Source of the DNA: a virus
Taxonomy: Duplodnaviria > Heunggongvirae > Uroviricota > Caudoviricetes
Virus record (IMG/VR): IMGVR_UViG_640753024_000007
Coordinates: 1 to 29,932 of that record
Length of the DNA stretch: 29,932 nt
Direction: 5' to 3' (one strand)
The number at the start of each line of letters is the position of its first letter. Within the stretch, counting starts at the first letter, position 1. Under the pieces are notes generated by a model, which saw only the letters and a program-made list of their open reading frames with translations, was not told the origin of the DNA and did no database searches. Below, piece by piece: positions 6,233 through 29,932 of this stretch. A program made the position numbers and the translations under genes.

Positions 6233-6517
6233 ATGGCAAAATTTACAGTCAGGATCGAACTTCGCGATTCCAGTTCCGCTGATTACGATAAGCTTCATGA
6301 ACGAATGGAAGCAAAGGGATTCTCCAGAACGATTACAACCTCTTTAGGGAACACCTACCGTCTTCCTAATGCCGAATATATATATTCAAGCAAGAATGAA
6401 GACAAAGAATCTGTTGCTGACCTTGCTGAATCAGTGGCCTCAAAAGTTAAGAAAAATCCCGGTGTTCTTGTTACCGAATCTAATGGGCGCTATGTAAAAA
6501 ACTTAGATGATGCTTAA
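6233..6517 (+). CDS. Hypothetical protein (94 aa)
   Basis: GGAGGA RBS 4 nt before ATG 6233; charged, Lys/Glu-rich soluble protein. Confidence 0.6.
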   Translation: MAKFTVRIELRDSSSADYDKLHERMEAKGFSRTITTSLGNTYRLPNAEYIYSSKNEDKESVADLAESVASKVKKNPGVLVTESNGRYVKNLDDA

Positions 6518-17707: not shown

Positions 17708-17926
17708 TTGTATAAACTCAGTAGGGAATGCTAATTTCACATACAACATAGTTAAAGAAAACTTAATTTTAATGTAAAAAGGCTGCCCTCAGGCGGTCTT
17801 TTTATGCTCGAAAATTGATGCAGTACGTTAAACGCGCTGGTGGTTGCGAATACCGTTTTTTCAGCTTGCTGGCTTTTTAGACAAGAGTTATTGGTATGTC
17901 ACGTTAACCAGAAAAGGGAAAAAGAC

Positions 17927-18124
17927 ATGCTAAAACAGCAGGATATGACCGAAACCGCCAGAGTGGTGTTTAATGAATTAAGCGTCACCGAACCGGCGAC
18001 CGTCGGGGAAATTGCGCAGAATACTTACCTTTCACGCGAACGCTGCCAGTTAATACTGACTCAGCTTGTTATGGCGGGTCTGGCAGATTATCAGTTCGGT
18101 TGTTACAGACGCCTTCCTCAGTGA
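17927..18124 (+). CDS. Small hypothetical protein (65 aa)
   Basis: AAGGGA RBS before ATG 17927; followed by a terminator. Confidence 0.5.
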   Translation: MLKQQDMTETARVVFNELSVTEPATVGEIAQNTYLSRERCQLILTQLVMAGLADYQFGCYRRLPQ

Positions 18125-18133
18125 AGGTTTTTT
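18112..18133 (+). terminator. Intrinsic terminator overlapping the stop of the small gene
   Basis: CCTTC-ctcagt-GAAGG followed by TTTTTT. Confidence 0.5.
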
Positions 18134-18274
18134 AATTTGTGGTAATGGGCGGCTGGTGGGTGTTAGCGGCACCTGCCAGCCATCTGCTCATGCGTTGGGG
18201 TCACAAGCAAACCTCAGGCCCATCTGCTTTGCGCAAAAGCGGTATGAGCCTATCAGAGAAGTGCTTATTGATCT

Positions 18275-19321
18275 ATGGTTAATACTGTAAAAATATCCAG
18301 TTGTGAGTTAATCAACGCTGATTGCCTGGAATTTATCCAGACCTTACCGGAAAACTCTGTCGACCTGATAGTCACAGACCCGCCATACTTTAAAGTGAAG
18401 CCCGAGGGTTGGGATAACCAGTGGAAGGGCGACGATGATTACCTGAAATGGCTGGATCAGTGTCTGGCGCAATTCTGGCGGGTACTGAAACCTGCCGGAA
18501 GTCTCTACCTGTTCTGTGGTCATCGCCTGGCATCTGATATCGAAATCATGATGCGTCAGCGCTTTAATGTGCTGAACCACATTATCTGGGCGAAGCCGTC
18601 CGGACGCTGGAACGGATGCAACAAGGAAAGCCTGCGGGCGTATTTCCCGGCAACAGAACGCATTCTGTTTGCAGAACATTATCAGGGGCCATACCAGCCC
18701 AAAAATGACGGCTATGCGGCAAAGGGGCGCGAGCTAAAACAGCACGTCATGGCCCCGCTGATTTCTTACTTTCGTGATGCGCGTGAATCACTGGGAATAA
18801 CGTCAAAACAGATAGCGGAAGCCACCGGAAAGAAAAACATGGCTTCGCACTGGTTTGGTACCAGTCAGTGGCAGTTACCGAACGAGGGTGATTACAACAA
18901 ATTGCAGGAGTTGTTTGCGCGTGTTGCGGCAGAAAAACATCAGCGCGGGGAACTGGAAAAGCCACACCACCAGCTGGTCAGCACATACAGTGAACTGAAC
19001 CGGCAATATGCCAGCCTGCTGGCAGAGTACAAATCTTTACGGCGTTATTTTTCCGTATCGGCTGCTGTTCCTTATACGGATGTCTGGACGTACAAGCCAG
19101 TGCAGTATTATCCGGGCAAACATCCCTGTGAAAAACCAGCGGATATGTTACGTCAGATAATTACCGCCAGCAGTCGTCCGGGAGACTTGGTTGTCGACTT
19201 TTTTATGGGGTCAGGCTCCACAATTAAAGCCGCAATGACGCTGGGGCGTCGGGCAATTGGTGTGGAACTGGAAAAAGAGAGATTTAATCAAACTGTAACT
19301 GTAATAGAAAATAATCTTTAA
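18275..19321 (+). CDS. DNA methyltransferase (beta-class amino-MTase, DPPY motif; N6-adenine or N4-cytosine)
   Basis: Motif IV LIVTDPPYF lies N-terminal to motif I DFFMGSGST (beta-class order); no adjacent restriction endonuclease. Confidence 0.85.
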   Translation: MVNTVKISSCELINADCLEFIQTLPENSVDLIVTDPPYFKVKPEGWDNQWKGDDDYLKWLDQCLAQFWRVLKPAGSLYLFCGHRLASDIEIMMRQRFNVLNHIIWAKPSGRWNGCNKESLRAYFPATERILFAEHYQGPYQPKNDGYAAKGRELKQHVMAPLISYFRDARESLGITSKQIAEATGKKNMASHWFGTSQWQLPNEGDYNKLQELFARVAAEKHQRGELEKPHHQLVSTYSELNRQYASLLAEYKSLRRYFSVSAAVPYTDVWTYKPVQYYPGKHPCEKPADMLRQIITASSRPGDLVVDFFMGSGSTIKAAMTLGRRAIGVELEKERFNQTVTVIENNL

Positions 19322-19385
19322 ACACGCTTTCTTTTATTTATTAATTATTGAAACAATAAAAACATATGAGTATATATTACAAATA

Positions 19386-19416
19386 TTGACATTGATTTTT
19401 ATTGAAAAAATATCTT
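19386..19416 (+). promoter_or_regulatory. Candidate sigma70 promoter for the tRNA pair
   Basis: TTGACA at 19386-19391 with TATCTT/AATATC candidates 17-19 bp downstream, about 70 nt before the first tRNA. Confidence 0.35.
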
Positions 19417-19487
19417 ATCTCGTTAATATTCTCACCCGGTTCCGAGGGGGTATTGCTGGGGCATTTTATTTTTCTTGAGGAACCATT

Positions 19488-19563
<76 letters not shown>

Positions 19564-19566
19564 TAT

Positions 19567-19641
<75 letters not shown>

Positions 19642-19996
19642 TCATTATTCTGGCAACACGAATTATACAGCACTGGCGTGTTTTTTTACGTGGGGGCAGG
19701 TTGTTTTAAGACATCTTTGGTCCTCAGGCTATGGTTTAAGGTCGGTTATAGCCTCAGTGCTGATTTTTTACACCAATGGAATGGTGCATTATCGGTGGAG
19801 ATTTAGTATTTCCTGGCAGGGCTGATGATGCACTATCCCGGTGTTGTAAAAACACTACAGAGGTGTTCCTCAGTGCGAGGGTGGTTTAAAGAGTCGGTTT
19901 AGCGGGAAACCACAGTATCCTTGTGGGGCTGGATGCTTCGGGAGGCACCCGACACTTCTGAATACAATTAAATCATGCGTTTTTATATGCCATTAA

Positions 19997-20021
19997 CCGC
20001 CGCTCCAGGCGGTTTTTTTTT
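19997..20021 (+). terminator. Intrinsic terminator
   Basis: CCGCC-gctcca-GGCGG followed by T9. Confidence 0.7.
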
Positions 20022-20641
20022 ATTCAAAGTTCGGGGTTACAAGTGCTCGCTTCCACTACTTTGGTTTTTACAATTATAGTTTTTGGGAGAATCTTCATGG
20101 GGCGTGCTTCATCCTTTGCAATTCGCTGATCCTGGTGTATGAGACAATGAAGTCCATGCGGTAACGAAGGTCGGATATCTGCTCGGTTTTATTCTGGTAA
20201 TTTGGGGCCTTCGCTTTTTACGGATGCGGGCAGCACAAGGTTATTGGGGCGACGGCCATCATTGTTGCATTTGCAGGAGTTATTCTGAGTCCGACAAGAA
20301 TGTGCTGTTGAGTGCACGGTTGGCTGAAAGAAACTGCCACCTGAAGAATGGTGAACTTATTTAGTAGGGGATCCTGGATGAAATTGAACGGGATGATAAC
20401 TCCGAAATTAGTCCACTGAGGAATGCCTTATACAAGAGATCATGGATAACCCTCGGGCATTTACAGGAAGCAAACGCTACTTACTTCACTACCCCGGAGA
20501 AGTGGGGACTGTCAATATGACAGATAACAAAATCTGAAAATGAGTCTCTCCAGTTGAGAAATATACGATGAAGGAGCATTCTGTTCAGCGCAAAGTAATC
20601 CGTTTTGTGATGAATAATCTCGAGAGTCATTTTTCATTCCT

Positions 20642-20670
20642 GCCAGCCTCCCCAGAGCTGGCTTTTTTTT
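20642..20670 (+). terminator. Intrinsic terminator
   Basis: GCCAGC-ctccccaga-GCTGGC followed by T8. Confidence 0.7.
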
Positions 20671-20733
20671 GAGGCCTGTTCTGACGGGCTTTTTTGTATT
20701 CGCTCCACGTCCCATACATATCAAATCTGAATA

Positions 20734-20781
20734 ACACCACACAAAGGCATCTGCGGATGTCTTTGGTGTGGTGTTTTTTTT
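20734..20781 (+). terminator. Strong intrinsic terminator (long hairpin) followed by a second small GGCC hairpin with its own T-run
   Basis: ACACCACACAAAG...CTTTGGTGTGGTGT stem of about 13 bp followed by T8; then GGCC-gctggt-GGCC followed by T6. Confidence 0.7.
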
Positions 20782-20821
20782 GGGCCGCTGGTGGCCTTTT
20801 TTAATTTACAGGAGAAAAAGT

Positions 20822-21172
20822 ATGTCTGAACCCTTATCCGGTTCCGGCACAGCTGCTGCGCTCGGTGGGGCGACTGTTTTCGGGCTGTTTACCGGAACGG
20901 ATTTCGGGATTGTGTTTGGCGCATTTGCGGGGGCGTTGTTTGTTGCAACGATACCGCAGGCGCTTTCAGCATGGCGGGTGAAGGGGCTGCTGCATCACGG
21001 TCTGAAACTGAACCGTCTGGCTGAACGGGCGGCGCAGGATCTGTCATTCATGGAGCCGCCTCCCGCGCAGCCGGAAGAAAAAATCAGTTTAAGTATGCCG
21101 GGCGCAAAAGCACCGGAGACACCCCGTAAGAAAATACCGCTGCATATGAGGCTTGCAGGAGTGAGACGATGA
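20822..21172 (+). CDS. Hypothetical protein (117 aa) with N-terminal glycine-zipper hydrophobic segment; translationally coupled to gpW
   Basis: AGGAGA RBS; ATGA overlap with the W-like gene; occupies the position where lambda terminase large subunit would end. Confidence 0.5.
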   Translation: MSEPLSGSGTAAALGGATVFGLFTGTDFGIVFGAFAGALFVATIPQALSAWRVKGLLHHGLKLNRLAERAAQDLSFMEPPPAQPEEKISLSMPGAKAPETPRKKIPLHMRLAGVRR

Positions 21173-21420
21173 TGAATCCCCCCGGCGTGTTTGCCGGAAT
21201 GTCAAAAGAACAACTGAAGGCGGCACTGAATGAAGCTCAGGCGGCCTATATTGAGCTGCTTTCAGGGCGGCGTGGCGTGAGTTTCTCCTATGCACAGGGA
21301 GACGGCACGCGCACCGTGACTTATTCACAGGCCAGCAGTGCTGATTTGCTGGCGCTGATCGCGACGCTCCAGCGGGCGCTGGGGATAAGGACGAGAAGGT
21401 CTCTGAGCGTGCGTTACTGA
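21169..21420 (+). CDS. Head-tail joining protein, lambda gpW-like
   Basis: 83 aa; immediately precedes the portal gene; charged N-terminal helix and a GDGTRTVTYS segment recall lambda W. Confidence 0.6.
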   Translation: MMNPPGVFAGMSKEQLKAALNEAQAAYIELLSGRRGVSFSYAQGDGTRTVTYSQASSADLLALIATLQRALGIRTRRSLSVRY

Positions 21421-21428
21421 GGTGAGCG

Positions 21429-22511
21429 ATGATAGTCGATAAAAATGGCAGACCTTTTCCGCAACAGACGGAAAAAAAACGCGCACTGAATGACAGCGGG
21501 CGGATCCCCTACGACTCTGCCGGTTTCTCGCACGGTTCGGTGGTGGGCTGGAACCCGGTACTGTGGTCACCGGACAATGAAGTGAATATCTGGCGTAACC
21601 GTATGGTTGCCAGAATGCGCGACCTTGTCCGCAATGACGGCTGGGCGAATGGCAGTATCACCCGTCTGCTGGACAATGCCATGGGGGTGGTTTTTCGCCC
21701 GAGGATGAAGCCTGACTACCGGATGCTGGCAGAGATGACCGGCAACCGGGCATTTGATGCAGACTGGGCGGATGAGTACGGGCGCTGTGTGGAGGCACAC
21801 TGGCGCAACTGGGCCAGTGATGCCGGGTGTTACTGCGACCTTGAACGCAGACAGACCCTGCCGCAGCTTTTCCGGCTGGCATTCCGCCACAAGATGATCG
21901 ACGGCGATGCGCTGGCGGTCATCCACTGGCGACCGGACAGAATAGCCCCTGGTCGCGGGCGTTACGGTACGGTGGTACAGGTGATTGACCCCGACCGGCT
22001 GAGTAACCCGAACGATGCGTTTGACATGCCGCATATTCGTGGCGGTGTGGAAATTGACGCGGACGGGGTGCCGGTAGCCTATCACATCCGGTCCGCACAC
22101 ATGGGGGACTGGTGGAGCGGCAGTGACACGATGCACTGGGAACGCGTGCCGCGTGAAACGTCGTGGGGAAGGCCGGTGGTGGTGCATGACTTTGATCATG
22201 ACCGTGCGGGCCAGCATCGTGGTGTCGGTATTCTCAATCCCGTGGTTCAGCGTCTGAAAATGCTTATCAAGTACGACCAGGTGGAGCTGGAAGCCGCCAT
22301 CATCAATGCCATGTTCGGTTTTTTCATCACGTCGCCCTATGACCCGAAACTGACAGAAGATCTGATGAGTGACGCGGAGGTGATTAATGGCTACCAGGAT
22401 GCGCGCATGAAGTATCACGATACTAACCGGATTTCGATGTCGGGCGTGCGTATTCCCATCACGTTCCCCGGCGAAGAGCCAAAAGCCGTGAGCGCCGCCC
22501 GACCGAGGTGA
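21429..22511 (+). pseudogene. Portal protein (lambda gpB-like), 3'-truncated by deletion
   Basis: 360 aa versus about 530 for lambda B; recalled B motifs conserved (VRNDGWANG, CYCDLERRQT, DRLSNPN); ORF terminates where capsid-E homology begins in another frame. Confidence 0.75.
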
Positions 22512-22942
22512 TTTTCACGCCGTCAGCCTGGACAGCGTTCATGAACGACAGTTTCATTCGTGAGAACGCCATCAACATGCCCGCCCTGAACCCGACCAGC
22601 AACGTGGTGAACCCGGGGACGCAGATCAACACCGGTGCGGTGTACAAGGGCAGGTGGGGGAACTTCAACCTCTGGCTGTATAACGACTGGTTCATCGATC
22701 CGGATGACGGAACCGAAAAACCGATGCTGGATGACGGCAACGTCATTCTGACCGGGGCGGCCCTGATGGGGACCCGCGCGTTCGGCTGTATCATGGATCC
22801 GGCGTTTAATTACGGCCAGATGGCCTATGCCCCGAAAATGTGGGATCAGCAGGATCCGGCACAGCGTTTCCTGATGATGCAGTCGGCACCGATTGTCATC
22901 CCGTCCCGTGTCAATGCGTGCCTGTGCGCGTCGGTGGTGTGA
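22508..22942 (+). pseudogene. Major capsid protein (lambda gpE-like), C-terminal third only
   Basis: VIFTPSAWTAF, GTRAFGCIMD and FLMMQSAPIV resemble the C-terminal part of lambda E as I recall it; no N-terminal two-thirds present. Confidence 0.7.
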
Positions 22943-22943
22943 G

Positions 22944-23129
22944 ATGGCGTCCGGCAAAAAGGGCGCGCCGGTTGACTATGTTGTGCTGCGCGGTTGTGTG
23001 CAGCACAACGGACAACGGGTGGCGCAGGGTAATGTGATCACCCTGAGCGAAAGCGAGGCGCAGCGTCTTCTGCGTCTGGGGGTGATTGTTCCACTGGCGG
23101 AGATGAAGGGTGATGGCCGGACCGGTTGA
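22944..23129 (+). CDS. Small head-associated protein (61 aa), function unknown
   Basis: Lies between the capsid and FII-like genes; weak GGTG RBS. Confidence 0.4.
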   Translation: MASGKKGAPVDYVVLRGCVQHNGQRVAQGNVITLSESEAQRLLRLGVIVPLAEMKGDGRTG

Positions 23130-23445
23130 CTGGGACAAAAATCTGTTGTCCCCGTTGTTCGGGGTGTTTGGTGAGGAATGCGAACACCGCCCGCGTGGCG
23201 GTGAGGCGTACCGGCTGACCGGGATTTTTGACCGGGCGTACACGCAGCAGCTTGTCGGCGAGGACGGGGGCACGGAATCAAACTCCACGCTGCCCGTGCT
23301 GGGCGTGCGGGATGCGGCGTGTCGCGTGAAGCCGAAGCAGGGCGATATTTTCCTCATCGTGCGCACGGGGGAGCTGTATATCGTGCGGGATGTGCAACCG
23401 GACAGCCACGGCGGCACGCGACTTGAACTGAACAGGGTGAAGTGA
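23113..23445 (+). CDS. Head-tail connector, lambda gpFII-like
   Basis: GIFDRAY...RVKPKQGDIFLIVRTGELYIVRDVQPDSHGGTRLEL parallels the recalled lambda FII (GVFDDPEN...RRGDTLTIGEENFWVDRVSPDDGGSCHLWL). Confidence 0.6.
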   Translation: MAGPVDWDKNLLSPLFGVFGEECEHRPRGGEAYRLTGIFDRAYTQQLVGEDGGTESNSTLPVLGVRDAACRVKPKQGDIFLIVRTGELYIVRDVQPDSHGGTRLELNRVK

Positions 23446-23564
23446 TGAATACCGCAGAAGCCAGAAAAATTGTCACCCGGGCACTGAACGACTGTTCCGG
23501 TTTTGGCGGTCGGGTGTATTCCCCGCGCACCCTGCCGGTGATGCCGGACCAGTACAGGGGCTGA
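23445..23564 (+). pseudogene. 39-aa remnant, probable 5' fragment of a tail gene
   Basis: ATGA overlap with the FII-like stop; ORF stops after 39 codons where a baseplate-protein remnant begins in another frame. Confidence 0.35.
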
Positions 23565-23593
23565 GCAGTGCCACGGCGGCACTGAAGGCACGG

Positions 23594-23791
23594 GTGGAGA
23601 GTGCCATCAGCGAGGTGCTGTACAACGTGGGTGAACCGGACGGCAGCGGGGTGATTCACCTTTCAGACCTCTGGTACGCCATTGCGGACACAGAGGGGAC
23701 AGACGGGTTCATTCTGGTGTCTCCTGACAGCAACATCACGCTGTCGCAGGGAGAGCTGCCGGTGACCGGAACGATAACCTGGGCAACATGA
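23594..23791 (+). pseudogene. C-terminal remnant of a baseplate J-like protein (Mu gp47 / P2 gpJ family)
   Basis: No start codon upstream in frame; ATGA overlap with the downstream gp48-like gene, the Mu-type baseplate/tail-fiber gene order. Confidence 0.45.
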
Positions 23792-26334
23792 GGAACAGGA
23801 TGAGTCGTTTTTCACATGATGACTACACGCGCGCGATGCTGAACCTTCTGCCGTCAGGGATTGCCTGGAGCCGTCTGCCTGACAGCGTGCAGCACAGGCT
23901 GATACGCGGACTGGCACAGGCGTACCGGAAGAGTGACGCTGATGCGTGCGCACTGATAACGGGCGCCTTCCCGGAAACGGCGGATGCGCTCACTGATGAG
24001 TGGTATGCCTCGCTGGGGCTGAATGATGAATGCGGGACGCAGGCATCCACCACAGACCCGGCGCAGGCCAGAAAATTCATTCTGGCGAAACTGCTGTCGA
24101 CGGGCGGGCAGAGTGTGGCGTATTTCACGGAACTTGCGGCGACGATGGGGTACAGCATCAGTATCCGTGAGTACCGCACACCACTGTGCGGATTTTCGTG
24201 GAGCGGGCATCTGCTGAGTGACGACAACCGGTTTAACTGGACCGTGGTGGTGGCCCCGCCGGGGGATGAGGTGACCACCTCACGGGCGTACCTGGAGTGC
24301 CTGTTTCGTCGTTATGCCCCGGCGCATACGCTGGTGACGTTTGAGTGGCAGTCATCGTACAGCGCCGCCCTGAGCATTGCGTGGGACAACATCACACACG
24401 TTCTTTCCGGTGCGCTCACGGCAGATGAGGGGGTGGTGGTGTCGGGGGTGACGGTGAATGTTGTCATCAAATCCGCGTCGGGACAGCGGTATGTGGCGAC
24501 AGTGACAACGGACAGTGAAGGGCACTGGTCGTATGAAATGGAGGATGATGATTTTGCAAACGGCTGGTACAGCAGCACGGCTTACAACGACCTGGTCAGA
24601 CTACGTCAACTTCCGGCGGGACAAAAATCCTGTAGCTACCTTGCGAGTAATACCCCCAGTCTGGTGAGTATTGACAGCGGCGCATTCCGTTTTTGCAAAA
24701 ACGCTACGGCATTCGACAGTGCATTTTACCGGTGTAAAGGACTGACTGCGATACCTCCGGGGCTGTTTGCTGAGTGCGCCAGCGCCACGACGTTCTATCA
24801 GGCATTTTACGAATGTACGGGACTCACTGCAGTCGGTGACAGCGCGTTTGCCGGCTGCACAGGCGTAACGACTTTTCGTCAGGCGTTTTACGGCTGTACC
24901 GGGCTGAGAGCGGTGGGTGAGAGCGTGTTTGCCGGGTGCACCGGTGCCACGACGTTTGAGGATACCTTTTATGGTTGTACCGGACTGAGCACGGTGGGTA
25001 ACAGCGTGTTTGCCGGATGTGCCAGTGCCACAACGTTTTTGCAGGCCTTTTATGGCTGCCAGGCGCTGACATCATTAGGTCAGGGGATATTTGCAGACTG
25101 CACCGGGGTGACGACATTCCTCCAGGCTTTTTATAACTGCAGGGGACTGACGGCATTGCCGGAAGGGATGTTTGACAGCTGCACTGCCGTGACCACGTTC
25201 AGTAATGCCTTTTATGGCTGCACGGCTCTGACAGCAATACCGGAAGGGTTGTTTGACAGTTGTACCGGGGTGACGACATTCAACCGGACGTTTTATGGCT
25301 GCGCGGCCCTGACAGCGATACCGGCAAAATTGTTCGCAAACTGCACAGAGGTTGCGACGTTTGAGGGGGTGTTTTCGGGATGCTCGGGGCTGGTAACGAT
25401 ACCGGCAGGGTTATTTGAAAAACTCACCAGTGTCACGACGTTTGACAGCGCGTTTTACGGGTGCAGGGCACTGACAACAGTGGGTGACAGAGTATTTGCT
25501 GGTTGTACAGGTACCACAACATTCGCAAGCGTATTTGAAGGTTGCACCGGACTGGTCACGATACCGGCTGACGTGTTTGCTGGTTGTTCGGGTGTCAGAT
25601 CGTTTTACCGGTCGTTTTTTGGGTGTACAGGACTGGCAATGGTCCCCCCGGAATTGTTTGCAGATTGTACCGGAGCCACGACGTTCTATACGACATTTTA
25701 CCGTTGTACCCGTCTGTCGGAAGTTCCTGCAGAGTTGTTTTCCGGTTGTACCGGAGCAAAGTCTTTCTATAAGACTTTTGGCGAATGTACCGGGTTGTCG
25801 GAGGTACCGGCCAGATTATTTGCAGATTGCACCGGTGCCACGACGTTTGAGGGGGTGTTTTCGGGATGCCGGGGGCTGACAACGATACCTGCAGGGTTGT
25901 TCGCTAACAGCGCCAGTGTCACCACTTTCTTTCAGGCGTTTTACGAATGCACGGGCCTGACCGCGATACCGTCAGGATTGTTTGCAGACTGTGTAAGTGT
26001 GACAACCTTCAGGCAGACCTTTTACGGTTGTTCCGGGCTGAGATCGATGGGCGACGGCGTGTTTGCGGGGTGCGCCAGTGCGACGACGTTTGAGGGCACC
26101 TTTTACGGTTGCACAGGGCTGGAAAGTGATGTGAATGACATCCTCCCGGCGGAGGAGTACCCGCAAATAACCAGTGTGTACAGTTGTTTTTACAACTGCC
26201 GCTCATTGCAGGGAAGCGGATGTGCGCTCATTGAGAAGTTGCCTGGCGTGACGAGTTACGCGGATGCGTTTTATAACTGCGTATCCCTGAGCGATTTCAG
26301 GACCTTGTCTGAGCGTTATCCAGTCTGGGTTTAA
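23788..26334 (+). CDS. Tail protein: N-terminal Mu gp48/YmfQ-like domain (DUF2313) fused to about 19 tandem 27-aa Cys-containing LRR-like repeats
   Basis: N-terminus DDYTRAMLNLLPSGIAWSR typical of the gp48/YmfQ family; repeats of consensus AFYGCTGLTAIPxGLFAxCTGVTTFxx from about residue 295 to 790. Confidence 0.75.
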   Translation: MRNRMSRFSHDDYTRAMLNLLPSGIAWSRLPDSVQHRLIRGLAQAYRKSDADACALITGAFPETADALTDEWYASLGLNDECGTQASTTDPAQARKFILAKLLSTGGQSVAYFTELAATMGYSISIREYRTPLCGFSWSGHLLSDDNRFNWTVVVAPPGDEVTTSRAYLECLFRRYAPAHTLVTFEWQSSYSAALSIAWDNITHVLSGALTADEGVVVSGVTVNVVIKSASGQRYVATVTTDSEGHWSYEMEDDDFANGWYSSTAYNDLVRLRQLPAGQKSCSYLASNTPSLVSIDSGAFRFCKNATAFDSAFYRCKGLTAIPPGLFAECASATTFYQAFYECTGLTAVGDSAFAGCTGVTTFRQAFYGCTGLRAVGESVFAGCTGATTFEDTFYGCTGLSTVGNSVFAGCASATTFLQAFYGCQALTSLGQGIFADCTGVTTFLQAFYNCRGLTALPEGMFDSCTAVTTFSNAFYGCTALTAIPEGLFDSCTGVTTFNRTFYGCAALTAIPAKLFANCTEVATFEGVFSGCSGLVTIPAGLFEKLTSVTTFDSAFYGCRALTTVGDRVFAGCTGTTTFASVFEGCTGLVTIPADVFAGCSGVRSFYRSFFGCTGLAMVPPELFADCTGATTFYTTFYRCTRLSEVPAELFSGCTGAKSFYKTFGECTGLSEVPARLFADCTGATTFEGVFSGCRGLTTIPAGLFANSASVTTFFQAFYECTGLTAIPSGLFADCVSVTTFRQTFYGCSGLRSMGDGVFAGCASATTFEGTFYGCTGLESDVNDILPAEEYPQITSVYSCFYNCRSLQGSGCALIEKLPGVTSYADAFYNCVSLSDFRTLSERYPVWV
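24670..26160 (+). repeat. In-frame 81-bp tandem repeat array (about 19 units) inside the tail protein gene
   Basis: Periodic recurrence of ...TTTTA(C/T)GG(C/T)TG(C/T)AC(C/G)GG... every 81 nt; translated repeats each carry two Cys. Confidence 0.8.
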
Positions 26335-27724: not shown

Positions 27725-27963
27725 AGGCTACTGAGAAGCTTTTTTGCTTCAGTGAAACAAAATATTGGCTACTGTAGCATCGTGTTTAAAGAAAACCGGC
27801 ATGGTTCATGCCGGTTATATCAAAGTACGATATAAAATAAGTATAAAAGGATTTCAGGAGAGACAAACTAACAAAAAGGCATATTTGAATCAAATATATG
27901 CCTGTGTATTGTTATTAATTTATCGTTTCGTGATTTTTTATGACCTATTTATACATATAAGAG

Positions 27964-28754
27964 TTAACTTTGACTCTCAGTGTGTTTTTGTAACCATTTT
28001 TTTATTATGGTATTTACTTCTTTTGCATGTGTGACATTCAATGCATGATTGGCGTCAGGTATAATCGCAAGCTCAGAGTGCGGGATCATTTTGTGCATTT
28101 CAAGAGCTTTCTCCGGTGGTATTCCTGTATCGACGGATCCATGAAGAATCAGGGTGGGCGCTTTGATCGTATGAACTTTATCTGAAATATCGTCTCGCTC
28201 CAGCATTGCATTCATAGCTGGTTTGATGTTTTCAGGTTTATGACGTAGCCATACTTGTCTCCATATCTCTGCTTCAGAGATATTCTTTCCAAAGAAAACG
28301 GGTAATAATGAGGATATTATCTCTTCTTTTATGAGTGAGTTATGCCATCCATTACATAGTTCCATATAACTGGATGCAATTTCTGGCGGGTCCTGCTCGA
28401 CCTGAGTTGCCATAAGGATTAGTCCTGACAAACGCTCTGGATGTGACAGGGCAAATCGTAATGATATATACCCCCCCATCGACATCCCCCCCCTAAAATA
28501 AACTTATCCAGTTGTAGTGAGTCTGCGACGTTTAAAATGTCATCAACGATGTCATAGAGCGAGAATGGCTCAGTTTTTTCGGAGGGGGCATCGAAACCCC
28601 GAACATTAATGCAAACAACTCTATGTTTTTCTTTTAGTTCGTCAAACTGGTATTTGAACATTTCATTATTCATGAAAAATCCATGAACGAATATGGTAGG
28701 GGGATTGTTTTTATTTGTTTCAGTGTATCCAGAGTCAGTAAACGTAAAATTCAT
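27964..28754 (-). pseudogene. Alpha/beta-fold hydrolase interrupted by a frameshift in a poly-G tract at the nucleophile elbow
   Basis: Two overlapping minus-strand ORFs (28419..28754 N-part, 27964..28485 C-part); G-M-S-M-G-G nucleophile motif, HGSVD and ANHAL present; frames joined by changing the 8-G run at 28486-28493 to 9 or 6. Confidence 0.7.
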
Positions 28755-28889
28755 GAGTACTCCGTTATTTAGACAGTTATGTTGTACATTTGACTAATTA
28801 TAGCGAAGAGCTTTATTGACCTGCTGAACAGAAATCCACTTGTCAAAAACCTTCGAAGTTTATCTACCAAGATGGAGATAATCTTGTCA

Positions 28890-29188
28890 AGTATTCGTTA
28901 GGGCATAAAAGCATGGGTTTAATAGTAAATCTAAGACTTTTACGTGCGACAACACGCCTCATTCGTGTTGTGTTTTGTCGCAGTTTGTTCTTAAATTCTC
29001 GCAAATCATTTCCCTCTAATTTGAAGTAGTGCCTCCCACAAACAAACCGCTCAGAGTTACGGGTGTAATTGACTCTGATGTTGTTGATCTTGGCACCTAA
29101 AGCTGATCCAAAAGTTCGGTGATGATAACAGGAATCTGGTTATGGATGAGCGGGGATATGGTTTCAACAGAGATTTGAGTTGTCATAA
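28890..29188 (-). pseudogene. Degraded duplicate of the antirepressor N-terminus
   Basis: MTTQISVETISPLIHNQIPVIITELLDQL then stop, continuing out of frame as ...RFVCGRHYFKLEGNDLREFKNKL; parallels the N-terminus of the intact gene at 29372..29932. Confidence 0.6.
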
Positions 29189-29371: not shown

Positions 29372-29932
29372 CTAAAGCTGCATCAGCCTTTCCACCAGTT
29401 GTTCTTTACGGGCAACGAGCCAGCCGTGTTGCTCCAGATAAAATTTAAACCGTTCCAGAGTGCATACCATCGCATCGGCGGGGACTTTTTCTGTGAACTC
29501 TACCTGACCGTGTTTATCAAAGTGGATCAGTAATGCGCATCCATCATTTGGGGTGGGTGAGTTTTGTGTTGCTGGTGGTTGTTTTTGGCTGAAATAACAG
29601 TCTTCCAGTTTTTCGAACACTTCCCATGCCTGATCGGTTTCGAGCATTTTGGCATGGCGGGCTGCGCCACGTTCTGTCCAGAGGATAAGGGAACGGGCAT
29701 TTTTACCAACTAACCCGATTGTTTCAGGTCTGTTCTTAAACTCGCGTAATTCGTTTTTTTCAATTTTAAAGTAATGCTTTCCTACCACGAATCGCGTCGT
29801 GTTGTTCCGAAAGTTATCAGAAATGTTTTTGATTTTTGTTCCGTATAACTGCGCCAGAAGTTCAGTTGTAATAACGGGGACCTGGTTGTGGGTGATTGCA
29901 GGAAGAGTGTCGACAGAAATTTGAGTGGGCAT
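29372..29932 (-). CDS. Phage antirepressor (AntA/KilA-N-type N-terminal domain; C-terminal domain shared with the Rha protein at 4372..4929)
   Basis: 186-aa ORF whose ATG is the last codon in the window (true start could lie beyond it); C-terminal FTEKVPADAMVCTLERFKFYLEQHGW parallels the Rha C-terminus FTETVPDGALVCTLDTFRFYLEKQGW. Confidence 0.7.
   Translation of the reverse strand: MPTQISVDTLPAITHNQVPVITTELLAQLYGTKIKNISDNFRNNTTRFVVGKHYFKIEKNELREFKNRPETIGLVGKNARSLILWTERGAARHAKMLETDQAWEVFEKLEDCYFSQKQPPATQNSPTPNDGCALLIHFDKHGQVEFTEKVPADAMVCTLERFKFYLEQHGWLVARKEQLVERLMQL

What the first reader, a model, noticed from the sequence alone, without database searches (positions are those of the whole stretch)
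28419..28500. Alpha/beta hydrolase split by a frameshift in an 8-G homopolymer at the catalytic elbow
The N-terminal and C-terminal halves of an otherwise intact serine hydrolase (GMSMGG nucleophile motif, Asp and His present) are in different frames. The break falls within an 8-G run (a 7-G run lies 8 nt away); changing the run by +1 or -2 restores a continuous ORF reading FILGG(G)MSMGGY. This is either a sequencing homopolymer error, a recent inactivation, or a slipped-strand on/off switch for a cargo enzyme at the prophage end.
Basis: seen in the sequence. Interest (0 to 1): 0.5.

Follow-up and report, generated by a model that had tools for sequence, protein, structure and literature searches.

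The report
Slippage-broken esterase gene in prophage
A prophage-carried esterase-like gene in E. coli E24377A is truly broken by two extra G's in a run of G's next to its catalytic serine; the same run has changed length many times in related strains, which looks like ordinary decay at a slippery spot rather than a sequencing error or an evolved switch.

Summary
On the minus strand an 8-G run (28486-28493) and a 7-G run (28471-28477), 8 nt apart, sit at the nucleophile elbow of a 262-aa alpha/beta hydrolase. The gene is split into a 111-aa and a 173-aa ORF.

The intact state is 6 G (FILGGMSMGG), as in the closest intact E. coli allele (99.3% identical DNA). It is not 9 G. The window is therefore a +2 G allele.

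The window is E. coli E24377A (CP000800.1). The same 8-G allele occurs on 41 contigs, including DS26-1, Illumina drafts and run-level assemblies. It is a real, inherited frameshift, not an assembly error.

Exact-sequence look-ups show that both tracts vary in length among near-identical alleles:
- Tract 1 ranges from 5 to 10 G and tract 2 from 6 to 8 G; one allele duplicates the 16-nt unit.
- Most variants are out of frame.
- Alleles with 7, 8 or 9 G form one clade, and no return to 6 G was seen there.
- The rare in-frame 9-G form adds a Gly found in none of 17 natural homologues.
- More distant alleles have interrupted tracts and are intact.

Best reading: slippage has inactivated a dispensable prophage cargo gene at a mutational hotspot. 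An adaptive on/off switch is not excluded but is poorly supported. Interest is low to moderate.

The parts
27964..28754 (-). Whole disrupted alpha/beta-hydrolase (esterase-like) gene. With 6 G it would encode 262 aa with Ser91/Asp208/His236.
   Evidence: AlphaFold model of the intact allele P0017: pLDDT 91.2.
28419..28754 (-). N-terminal fragment ORF, 111 aa: native residues 1-89 (through beta5, ...KFILGG), one extra Gly, then an out-of-frame tail CRWGGIYHYDLPCHIQSVCQD.
   Evidence: The exact protein is on 41 contigs.
27964..28485 (-). C-terminal fragment ORF, 173 aa, starting MSMGG (nucleophile Ser, cap domain, Asp, His).
28486..28493 (-). Poly-G tract 1, 8 G here and 6 G in intact alleles. 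It encodes Gly88-Gly89 at the end of strand beta5 and is the site of the +2 frameshift.
   Evidence: Strand E85-90 in the model.
28478..28485 (-). Spacer ATGTCGAT between the two tracts: codons Met90-Ser91 and the first two bases of the Met92 codon (its G is the first base of tract 2).
28471..28477 (-). Poly-G tract 2, 7 G: the last base of the Met92 codon plus Gly93-Gly94. Wild-type length here, but 6 G and 8 G variants exist in other isolates.
28760..28763 (-). GGAG Shine-Dalgarno-like motif 5 nt upstream of the ATG at 28754.
   Evidence: Read directly. Function is inferred.
27794..27816 (-). Terminator-like hairpin (10 bp stem, T-rich tail) about 150 nt downstream of the hydrolase stop codon.
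   Evidence: consensus scan only.

Best explanation
The gene is a prophage cargo gene (a 'moron') for a small carboxylesterase-like serine hydrolase. It lies between the tail-fibre assembly gene and the prophage end, in a prophage inserted into ompW of E. coli E24377A.

In one allele lineage, synonymous codon use turned the conserved Gly-Gly pairs of the LGG-M-S-M-GG nucleophile elbow into uninterrupted runs of 6 G and 7 G. Replication slippage then lengthened the first run to 8 G, probably through 7 G. This shifts the frame one codon before the catalytic Ser91.

The N-terminal 89 native residues and the C-terminal 173 residues are now separate ORFs, neither of which can form the fold. The gene is a pseudogene, inherited clonally by E24377A, DS26-1 and dozens of related isolates.

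Because the runs are long and the gene is no longer under selection, both runs keep drifting in length. The site is a mutational hotspot, not an evolved switch.

Shown: the sequence, the frame, the ancestral 6 G, the recurrence of 8 G in independent assemblies, the length polymorphism, the single clade of expanded alleles, and the fold and catalytic triad of the intact allele.

Inferred: the slippage mechanism, the stepwise 6 to 7 to 8 route, the loss of function, and the lack of selection.
For: Anatomy.

Ancestral state: 10 fetched loci with intact genes read TTAGGGGGGATG, TTAGGGGGAATG or TTAGGTGGAATG, giving LGGMSMGG. The nearest (PapM-36-2, 99.3% identical over 951 bp) has 6 G and 7 G.

Source: 11 kb of the window is an exact substring of CP000800.1.

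Not an error: the 111-aa 8-G product occurs on 41 contigs from NCBI, Logan and ENA. All 30 fetched loci of this allele read 8 G/7 G.

Hotspot, given as (tract 1, tract 2) lengths and contig counts (locus L055):
- On the Ile20 background: (6,7) intact 42; (7,7) 48; (8,7) 42; (9,7) 4; (10,7) 1; (10,8) 6; (6,6) 21; (6,8), (8,6), (7,8) and (7,6) 1-3 each; a tandem duplication of the G-run+ATGTCGAT unit 3; and (5,7) in L055.
- On the Thr20 background (the window's): (8,7) 41; (7,7) 2; (9,7) 1; (8,6) 2; (6,7) none.

Single clade: all 7/8/9-G loci share T at -1217 and GG at -566/-564, whereas 6-G loci have AA. The 7-G locus L030 is 1 SNP and the 9-G locus L032 is 4 SNPs from 8-G loci over 6.1 kb.

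Non-canonical 9 G: all 17 natural homologues, down to 42% identity, have h-L-G-G-x-S-M-G-G with no extra residue.

Fold: AlphaFold pLDDT 91.2, strand 85-90, Ser91, helix 92-103. Best PDB match is the Thermogutta terrifontis esterase 4uhc/4uhe (phmmer E 1e-35; Foldseek TM 0.88).

Dispensability: the E24377A prophage has also lost about 18 kb of morphogenesis genes relative to DS26-1.
Against: Tract length differs among nearly identical backgrounds (7, 8 and 9 G within 1-5 SNPs). That is also what a phase-variable locus would show. An in-frame 9-G form has arisen at least twice, once on each background.

Contig counts are not independent isolates: the same genome can appear through several sources. 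Some singleton variants, such as the 3x-coverage metagenome contig L052, could be assembly errors.

No expression or activity data exist for any allele. I had no reads, so heterogeneity within a culture is unknown.

DNA for the abundant Ile20 7-G allele could not be fetched, so the 6 to 7 to 8 route is inferred.
Confidence: 0.8

Rival explanations
1. Adaptive contingency locus. The twin poly-G tracts act as a slipped-strand on/off switch, giving a subpopulation with active esterase (6 G or 9 G) and a subpopulation without it.
For: Twelve distinct tract-length combinations plus one duplication occur among alleles at least 99% identical. Alleles with 7, 8 and 9 G occur within 1-5 SNPs of each other. 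In-frame 9 G arose on both backgrounds (P0016, P0023).
Against: The tract lies mid-gene, inside the catalytic motif. It exists in only one allele lineage: other alleles read GGGGGA or GGTGGA and GGCGGA or GGGAGG, and are intact.

No canonical 6-G revertant was seen in the expanded clade; Thr20 with 6 G is absent from 15 billion proteins.

The only in-frame expanded form inserts a Gly in beta5 that no homologue has. One 'in-frame' form, (7,6), replaces M-S-M with D-V-D and so loses the nucleophile.

Each length class is carried by tens of contigs, which means states are stable over clonal expansion. In-frame forms make up only about 3% of expanded-allele contigs.
Confidence: 0.12
2. Homopolymer sequencing or assembly error: the real genome has an intact gene.
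For: Homopolymers are classic error sites. Some singleton length variants in low-coverage assemblies may well be errors (L052, coverage 3.2).
Against: The same 8-G/7-G allele appears in CP000800.1 and CP035879.1. It also appears in draft genomes GCA_002485165, GCA_001912545, GCA_002207345 and GCA_002206965, in Logan assemblies of several ERR/SRR runs, and in an ENA metagenome. The error would need to be +2, which is uncommon. From my own knowledge, E24377A was finished by Sanger sequencing (Rasko et al. 2008).
Confidence: 0.02
3. Recoding: -1 ribosomal frameshifting on G GGG GGA, or transcriptional slippage on the G run, yields a full-length LGGGMSMGG protein from the 8-G allele.
For: The zero-frame heptamer G GGG GGA has the X XXY YYZ form, and a -1 shift gives the C-terminal frame (read; frames).
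Against: There is no stimulatory structure downstream: the 101-nt fold has z = -0.80, and 43 of 200 shuffles fold as well. The frameshift is not conserved, since homologues are single ORFs. The product would carry the non-canonical extra Gly.
Confidence: 0.03

Closest known systems
Homopolymer-slippage frameshift pseudogenes in bacterial genomes (indel rate rising steeply with run length, G:C runs especially; established knowledge, e.g. E. coli mutation-accumulation studies)
   Same: An indel within a mononucleotide run splits an otherwise intact gene. It is clonally inherited, and run length drifts further after inactivation.
   Different: Two runs 8 nt apart both vary, and a 16-nt unit duplication between them also occurs. 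The spectrum is unusually rich for E. coli (tract 1 of 5-10 G, tract 2 of 6-8 G).
Simple-sequence contingency loci (poly-G/poly-C phase-variable genes of Neisseria, Haemophilus, Campylobacter)
   Same: A poly-G tract inside an ORF whose length decides the reading frame, with length polymorphism among close relatives.
   Different: The tract is short and lies mid-gene in the catalytic motif. It is not conserved across alleles. No canonical ON revertants were seen, and states are stable across many isolates. E. coli is mismatch-repair proficient and is not known for switches based on simple-sequence repeats.
Thermogutta terrifontis carboxylesterase TtEst (PDB 4uhc-4uhh) and the PcaD/aryl-esterase branch of alpha/beta hydrolases
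   Same: Same fold and size, LGGxSMGG elbow and Ser-Asp-His triad. About 31% identity, TM 0.88.
   Different: The substrate is unknown. NCBIfam PcaD, BioH, RutD and MenH models all score far below their cut-offs. The family is confined mainly to E. coli prophage ends.
Prophage morons: cargo genes beside tail-fibre genes at lambdoid or Mu-like prophage ends
   Same: A stand-alone transcription unit with lower G+C (39.8% against 48.2% for the window). It lies between the tail-fibre assembly gene and the attachment site, and recurs in different prophages at different integration sites.
   Different: There is no known phenotype and no PADLOC defence match. Here it is inactivated.

Membership tests
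Alpha/beta-hydrolase fold serine hydrolase (Pfam PF00561 Abhydrolase_1) | Profile match above the curated cut-off | tested here: met
   Repaired 262-aa protein: 88.7 bits against a 25.8 cut-off, E 6.2e-25. Also Hydrolase_4, Ndr and Abhydrolase_6.
Alpha/beta-hydrolase fold serine hydrolase (Pfam PF00561 Abhydrolase_1) | Nucleophile elbow G-x-S-x-G after strand beta5, plus catalytic Asp and His | tested here: met
   G89-M-S91-M-G93, D208 and H236 are invariant in 18 sequences. The model has strand 85-90, Ser91, then helix 92-103. The motif aligns to GGLSMGG, D and H of 4uhc.
Alpha/beta-hydrolase fold serine hydrolase (Pfam PF00561 Abhydrolase_1) | One continuous ORF encoding the whole fold (needed for a functional member) | tested here: not met
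   In the window the fold is split into 111-aa and 173-aa ORFs in different frames. It is a pseudogene of this family.
3-oxoadipate enol-lactonase PcaD / BioH / RutD / MenH equivalogs (NCBIfam) | Score at or above the equivalog cut-off | tested here: not met
   PcaD 105 against 255.85; BioH 90.5 against 206.95; RutD 77 against 238.5; MenH 74.6 against 208.55.
Simple-sequence contingency (phase-variable) locus | Repeat tract in the ORF whose length varies among close relatives | tested here: met
   Tract 1 of 5-10 G and tract 2 of 6-8 G among alleles at least 99% identical. 7, 8 and 9 G occur within 1-5 SNPs over 6.1 kb.
Simple-sequence contingency (phase-variable) locus | Reversible switching between a functional ON state and OFF states | tested here: inconclusive
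   No 6-G revertant in the expanded clade. The only in-frame expanded form (9 G, 5 contigs) has a Gly insertion seen in no natural homologue. Its activity was not tested.
Simple-sequence contingency (phase-variable) locus | Tract maintained across alleles and lineages of the gene | tested here: not met
   Other alleles interrupt both tracts (GGGGGA or GGTGGA; GGCGGA or GGGAGG) and are intact.
Simple-sequence contingency (phase-variable) locus | High-frequency length heterogeneity within a single culture | not testable with these tools
   This needs raw reads or colony-level sequencing; only assemblies were available.
Programmed -1 ribosomal frameshift site | Slippery heptamer plus stimulatory element, with the frameshift conserved among homologues | tested here: not met
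   The heptamer-like G GGG GGA is present. The downstream fold is no better than shuffles (z -0.80), and homologues are single ORFs.
Anti-phage defence system component (PADLOC) | Match to a defence-system protein model | tested here: not met
   No family matched at E <= 0.01. PHROGs gives only 'esterase/lipase'.

The most novel reading that the evidence does not exclude
The twin poly-G tracts form a true simple-sequence contingency locus in an E. coli (enterotoxigenic E. coli, ETEC) lineage. Slippage toggles a prophage-borne esterase between OFF (7, 8 or 10 G) and a tolerated ON form (9 G, LGGGMSMGG), giving mixed populations. Phase variation based on simple-sequence repeats is rarely documented in E. 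coli.
Probability: 0.08. Interest if true: 0.55.

Novelty: new member of a known kind. Interest (0 to 1): 0.25.

Why it matters
The main value is as a clean, well-documented case.
- It settles that the split is biological. It is shared by E24377A, DS26-1 and many related isolates, so it should be annotated as one pseudogene. RefSeq currently lists two 'alpha/beta fold hydrolase' CDSs in DS26-1.
- It shows how synonymous choice of GGG codons at a conserved Gly-Gly catalytic motif created a slippage-prone site that has killed the gene repeatedly. Alleles with interrupted tracts stay intact.
- The tract lengths could serve as a fine-scale lineage marker.
- If within-culture switching were ever shown, it would be a rare example of repeat-mediated phase variation in E. 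coli.

Tried and rejected
- I first assumed the window was DS26-1, which is 100% identical over the gene. That was wrong: the window is a deleted derivative and matches CP000800.1 exactly.
- The reading '9 G = intact' is rejected in favour of 6 G.
Neighbouring window genes were used instead. This yielded one 7-G and one 9-G locus, but none for the abundant Ile20 7-G class.
- The JGI metagenome scan and the IMG/VR scan gave only 1 and 4 loci.
- A downstream RNA structure for recoding was sought and none found.
- The promoter scan found nothing upstream of the gene; its one hit lies inside the ORF.
- PADLOC gave no hit.
- Literature searches for this locus, for poly-G phase variation in E. coli prophages, and for DS26-1 sequencing details found nothing specific.
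- A split, two-subunit functional hydrolase was considered and dismissed. The break lies inside the central sheet, immediately before the nucleophile, and the N-terminal fragment ends in 22 out-of-frame residues.

Full report
**1. What is in the sequence**

On the minus strand the region reads ...CTG GAT AAG TTT ATT TTA GGGGGGGG ATGTCGAT GGGGGGG TAT ATA TCA....
- The 8-G run is window 28486-28493.
- The 7-G run is 28471-28477.
- They are separated by the 8-nt spacer ATGTCGAT (28478-28485).

An ORF from 28754 to 28419 (111 aa) encodes MNFTF...LDKFILGGG followed by 22 out-of-frame residues. An overlapping ORF from 28485 to 27964 (173 aa) begins MSMGGYISLRF....

These are the only G/C runs of 7 or more in the whole 29.9-kb window. 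They exist because they are GGG codons for the two conserved Gly-Gly pairs flanking the nucleophile.

**2. What the gene is**

The repaired protein is a canonical alpha/beta hydrolase.
- Pfam: Abhydrolase_1, 88.7 bits, E 6e-25.
- Closest solved relative by sequence: the Thermogutta terrifontis esterase 4uhc (E 1e-35), with GGLSMGG, Asp and His aligned.
- Structure: an AlphaFold model of the intact allele P0017 has pLDDT 91.2. Strand beta5 spans residues 85-90, Ser91 sits at the elbow, and a helix spans 92-103. Foldseek returns the same esterase at TM 0.88.
- Conservation: Ser91, Asp208 and His236 are invariant in 18 family members.
- Function: NCBIfam equivalogs (PcaD, BioH, RutD, MenH) all score far below their cut-offs. 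PHROGs says only 'esterase/lipase', and PADLOC has no match.

The substrate is unknown. The safest label is an uncharacterised carboxylesterase- or lactonase-like serine hydrolase.

The frameshift falls at Gly88-Gly89, one codon before Met90-Ser91, inside the central sheet. Neither fragment could fold into an active enzyme (inference).

**3. Where it sits**

The window is an exact match to E. coli E24377A, CP000800.1 (11 kb exact).

The gene lies between a tail-fibre assembly gene and an ORF6N gene. This is the end of a prophage inserted into ompW, next to yciEFG and the trp operon.

Homologous hydrolase genes occupy the same slot in different prophages at other sites: icd, zinT/msrQ, prfC, dusA and bioA/ybhB. 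The slot is just past the tail-fibre or tail-fibre assembly genes, near the prophage end. With its lower G+C (39.8% against 48.2% for the window), the gene is a typical mobile cargo gene ('moron').

The E24377A copy of the prophage is itself decaying. Compared with the full-length relative in DS26-1 it has lost about 18 kb of head, tail and lysis genes in three sharp deletions, plus part of the leucine-rich-repeat tail protein.

**4. Which tract length is the intact one**

In 5,426 complete E. coli genomes the gene occurs in 28. All ten intact copies I fetched read LGGMSMGG. Their DNA is TTAGGGGGGATG (6 G), TTAGGGGGAATG or TTAGGTGGAATG. The closest, PapM-36-2 (99.3% identical), has 6 G followed by the same 7-G run.

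An alignment of 17 natural homologues down to 42% identity shows no extra residue between the strand and the elbow.

The window therefore carries a +2 G insertion. The 9-G option is not the native state.

**5. Real mutation or error?**

It is real.
- The exact 111-aa product that only an 8-G/7-G allele can encode is present on 41 contigs from NCBI, Logan and ENA, in 52 blocks of the collection.
- The fetched examples are CP000800.1, CP035879.1 (DS26-1), several draft genomes, run-level assemblies of independent ERR/SRR runs, and a metagenome scaffold. All read 8 G/7 G.
- A +2 error repeated across platforms and laboratories is not credible.
- From my own knowledge, E24377A was Sanger-finished (Rasko et al. 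2008); I did not verify this here.

**6. The unexpected part: both tracts are length-polymorphic**

Exact-sequence look-ups of designed variants gave the counts below. Each entry is (tract 1 length, tract 2 length) followed by the number of contigs.

| Allele (tract 1, tract 2) | Ile20 background | Thr20 background (the window's) |
|---|---|---|
| (6,7), intact | 42 | none |
| (7,7) | 48 | 2 |
| (8,7) | 42 | 41 |
| (9,7), in frame with extra Gly | 4 | 1 |
| (10,7) | 1 | none |
| (10,8) | 6 | – |
| (6,6) | 21 | – |
| (8,6) | 1-3 | 2 |
| (6,8), (7,8) | 1-3 each | – |
| (7,6), in frame but M-S-M becomes D-V-D | 1 | – |
| Tandem duplication of the G-run+ATGTCGAT unit | 3 | – |

('none' = looked up and absent from the collection; '–' = not looked up.)

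An IMG/VR contig adds (5,7), and a low-coverage metagenome contig adds another (6,6).

Counts are contigs, not independent isolates, and singletons may include errors. The classes with tens of contigs cannot be errors.

Alleles whose tracts are interrupted by synonymous A, T or C (P0018 with 41 contigs, P0019 with 12, and the more distant clusters) were found intact at the motif.

**7. History**

I compared a 6.1-kb alignment of 27 loci.
- Every 7-, 8- or 9-G locus shares T at -1217 and GG at -566/-564. All ten 6-G loci have AA at the latter sites. The expanded alleles therefore form one shallow clade.
- The Ile20-to-Thr20 change arose inside that clade, after inactivation.
- The 7-G locus L030 differs by 1 SNP from 8-G loci, and the 9-G locus L032 by 4 SNPs. 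Single-step changes of one G have thus continued on very short time scales.
- I found no expanded-clade allele that returned to 6 G.

**8. Interpretation**

The simplest account is replication slippage at a run that became long by synonymous drift. A dispensable cargo gene was inactivated, and both runs then drifted neutrally. Longer G runs slip more often (established knowledge).

An adaptive phase-variation switch is not excluded, since mutability and recurrent in-frame 9 G are what such a switch would show. Several observations argue against it:
- The tract sits inside the catalytic motif.
- It is absent from the other allele lineages.
- Each state is stable over dozens of contigs.
- No canonical revertants were seen.
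- The 9-G product has a non-native Gly insertion.

Recoding by -1 frameshifting on G GGG GGA is formally possible. It has no stimulatory structure (z -0.80), it is not conserved, and it would give the same non-native product.

**9. Verdict**

- Sequencing error is refuted.
- Recent inactivation is supported.
- The switch is supported only insofar as the tract is hypermutable.

This is an ordinary kind of event, a homopolymer-slippage pseudogene in a decaying prophage, with an unusually rich spectrum of tract-length alleles for E. coli. Interest is low to moderate. The decisive experiment is a read-level count of tract lengths in single-colony cultures, plus an activity test of the 9-G protein.

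Noticed in passing
window 17819-24569 (junctions near 23553-23555, 22498-22505 and 20979-20980): Compared with the full-length relative in E. coli DS26-1, the E24377A prophage has three sharp internal deletions of about 9.4, 3.1 and 5.4 kb. They remove baseplate, sheath, tube, capsid, terminase and lysis genes and leave fragments: a 65-aa baseplate J C-terminus, a 144-aa capsid piece and a 360-aa portal piece. The prophage is defective.
   Followed up: partly
window 23788-26334 (+): The leucine-rich-repeat tail protein is 848 aa here, against 1470 aa in DS26-1 and 1443 aa in PapM-36-2. The BLAST pattern suggests an internal deletion between its own repeats.
   Followed up: no
window about 28864-29170 (-): A second, partial and frameshifted ORF6N-domain copy lies between the intact ORF6N gene (29372-29932) and the hydrolase. 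RefSeq marks it as a pseudogene in DS26-1, PapM-36-2, C8 and ST2350, so it is an old lesion shared by the whole prophage group.
   Followed up: no
L005-L010 (other E. coli genomes) versus window 27964-28754: The hydrolase gene recurs at the same place in different prophages integrated at other sites (icd, zinT/msrQ, prfC, dusA, bioA/ybhB): just past the tail-fibre or tail-fibre assembly genes, near the prophage end. A 40-aa ORF annotated 'ferredoxin' often lies about 340 bp upstream. It looks like a mobile moron cassette of unknown function.
   Followed up: partly
L001/L011 (DS26-1, NZ_CP035879.1 795363-796060): RefSeq annotates the two fragments as separate, non-pseudo CDSs (WP_235834879.1, 80 aa; WP_235834878.1, 171 aa) instead of one frameshifted pseudogene.
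   Followed up: yes
protein P0008 (139 aa, 3 contigs): One allele reads LGGGMSMGGDVDGG..., which is a tandem duplication of the 16-nt unit (G-run + ATGTCGAT). The two G runs therefore also act as short direct repeats for larger slippage events.
   Followed up: partly
L058 (CP148380.1), about 6420-6480 of the locus: A more distant allele with interrupted G tracts is split at a different place. One base is missing immediately after a T7 run (TTTTTTTCGG becomes TTTTTTTGG), giving 168-aa and 124-aa ORFs. I could not tell whether this is a real mutation or a long-read error.
   Followed up: partly
window 19488-19641 (+): The prophage carries tRNA-Thr(TGT) and tRNA-Gly(TCC) genes. tRNA-Gly(TCC) reads GGA/GGG, the codons that make up the slippery tracts. 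This is probably a coincidence.
   Followed up: no
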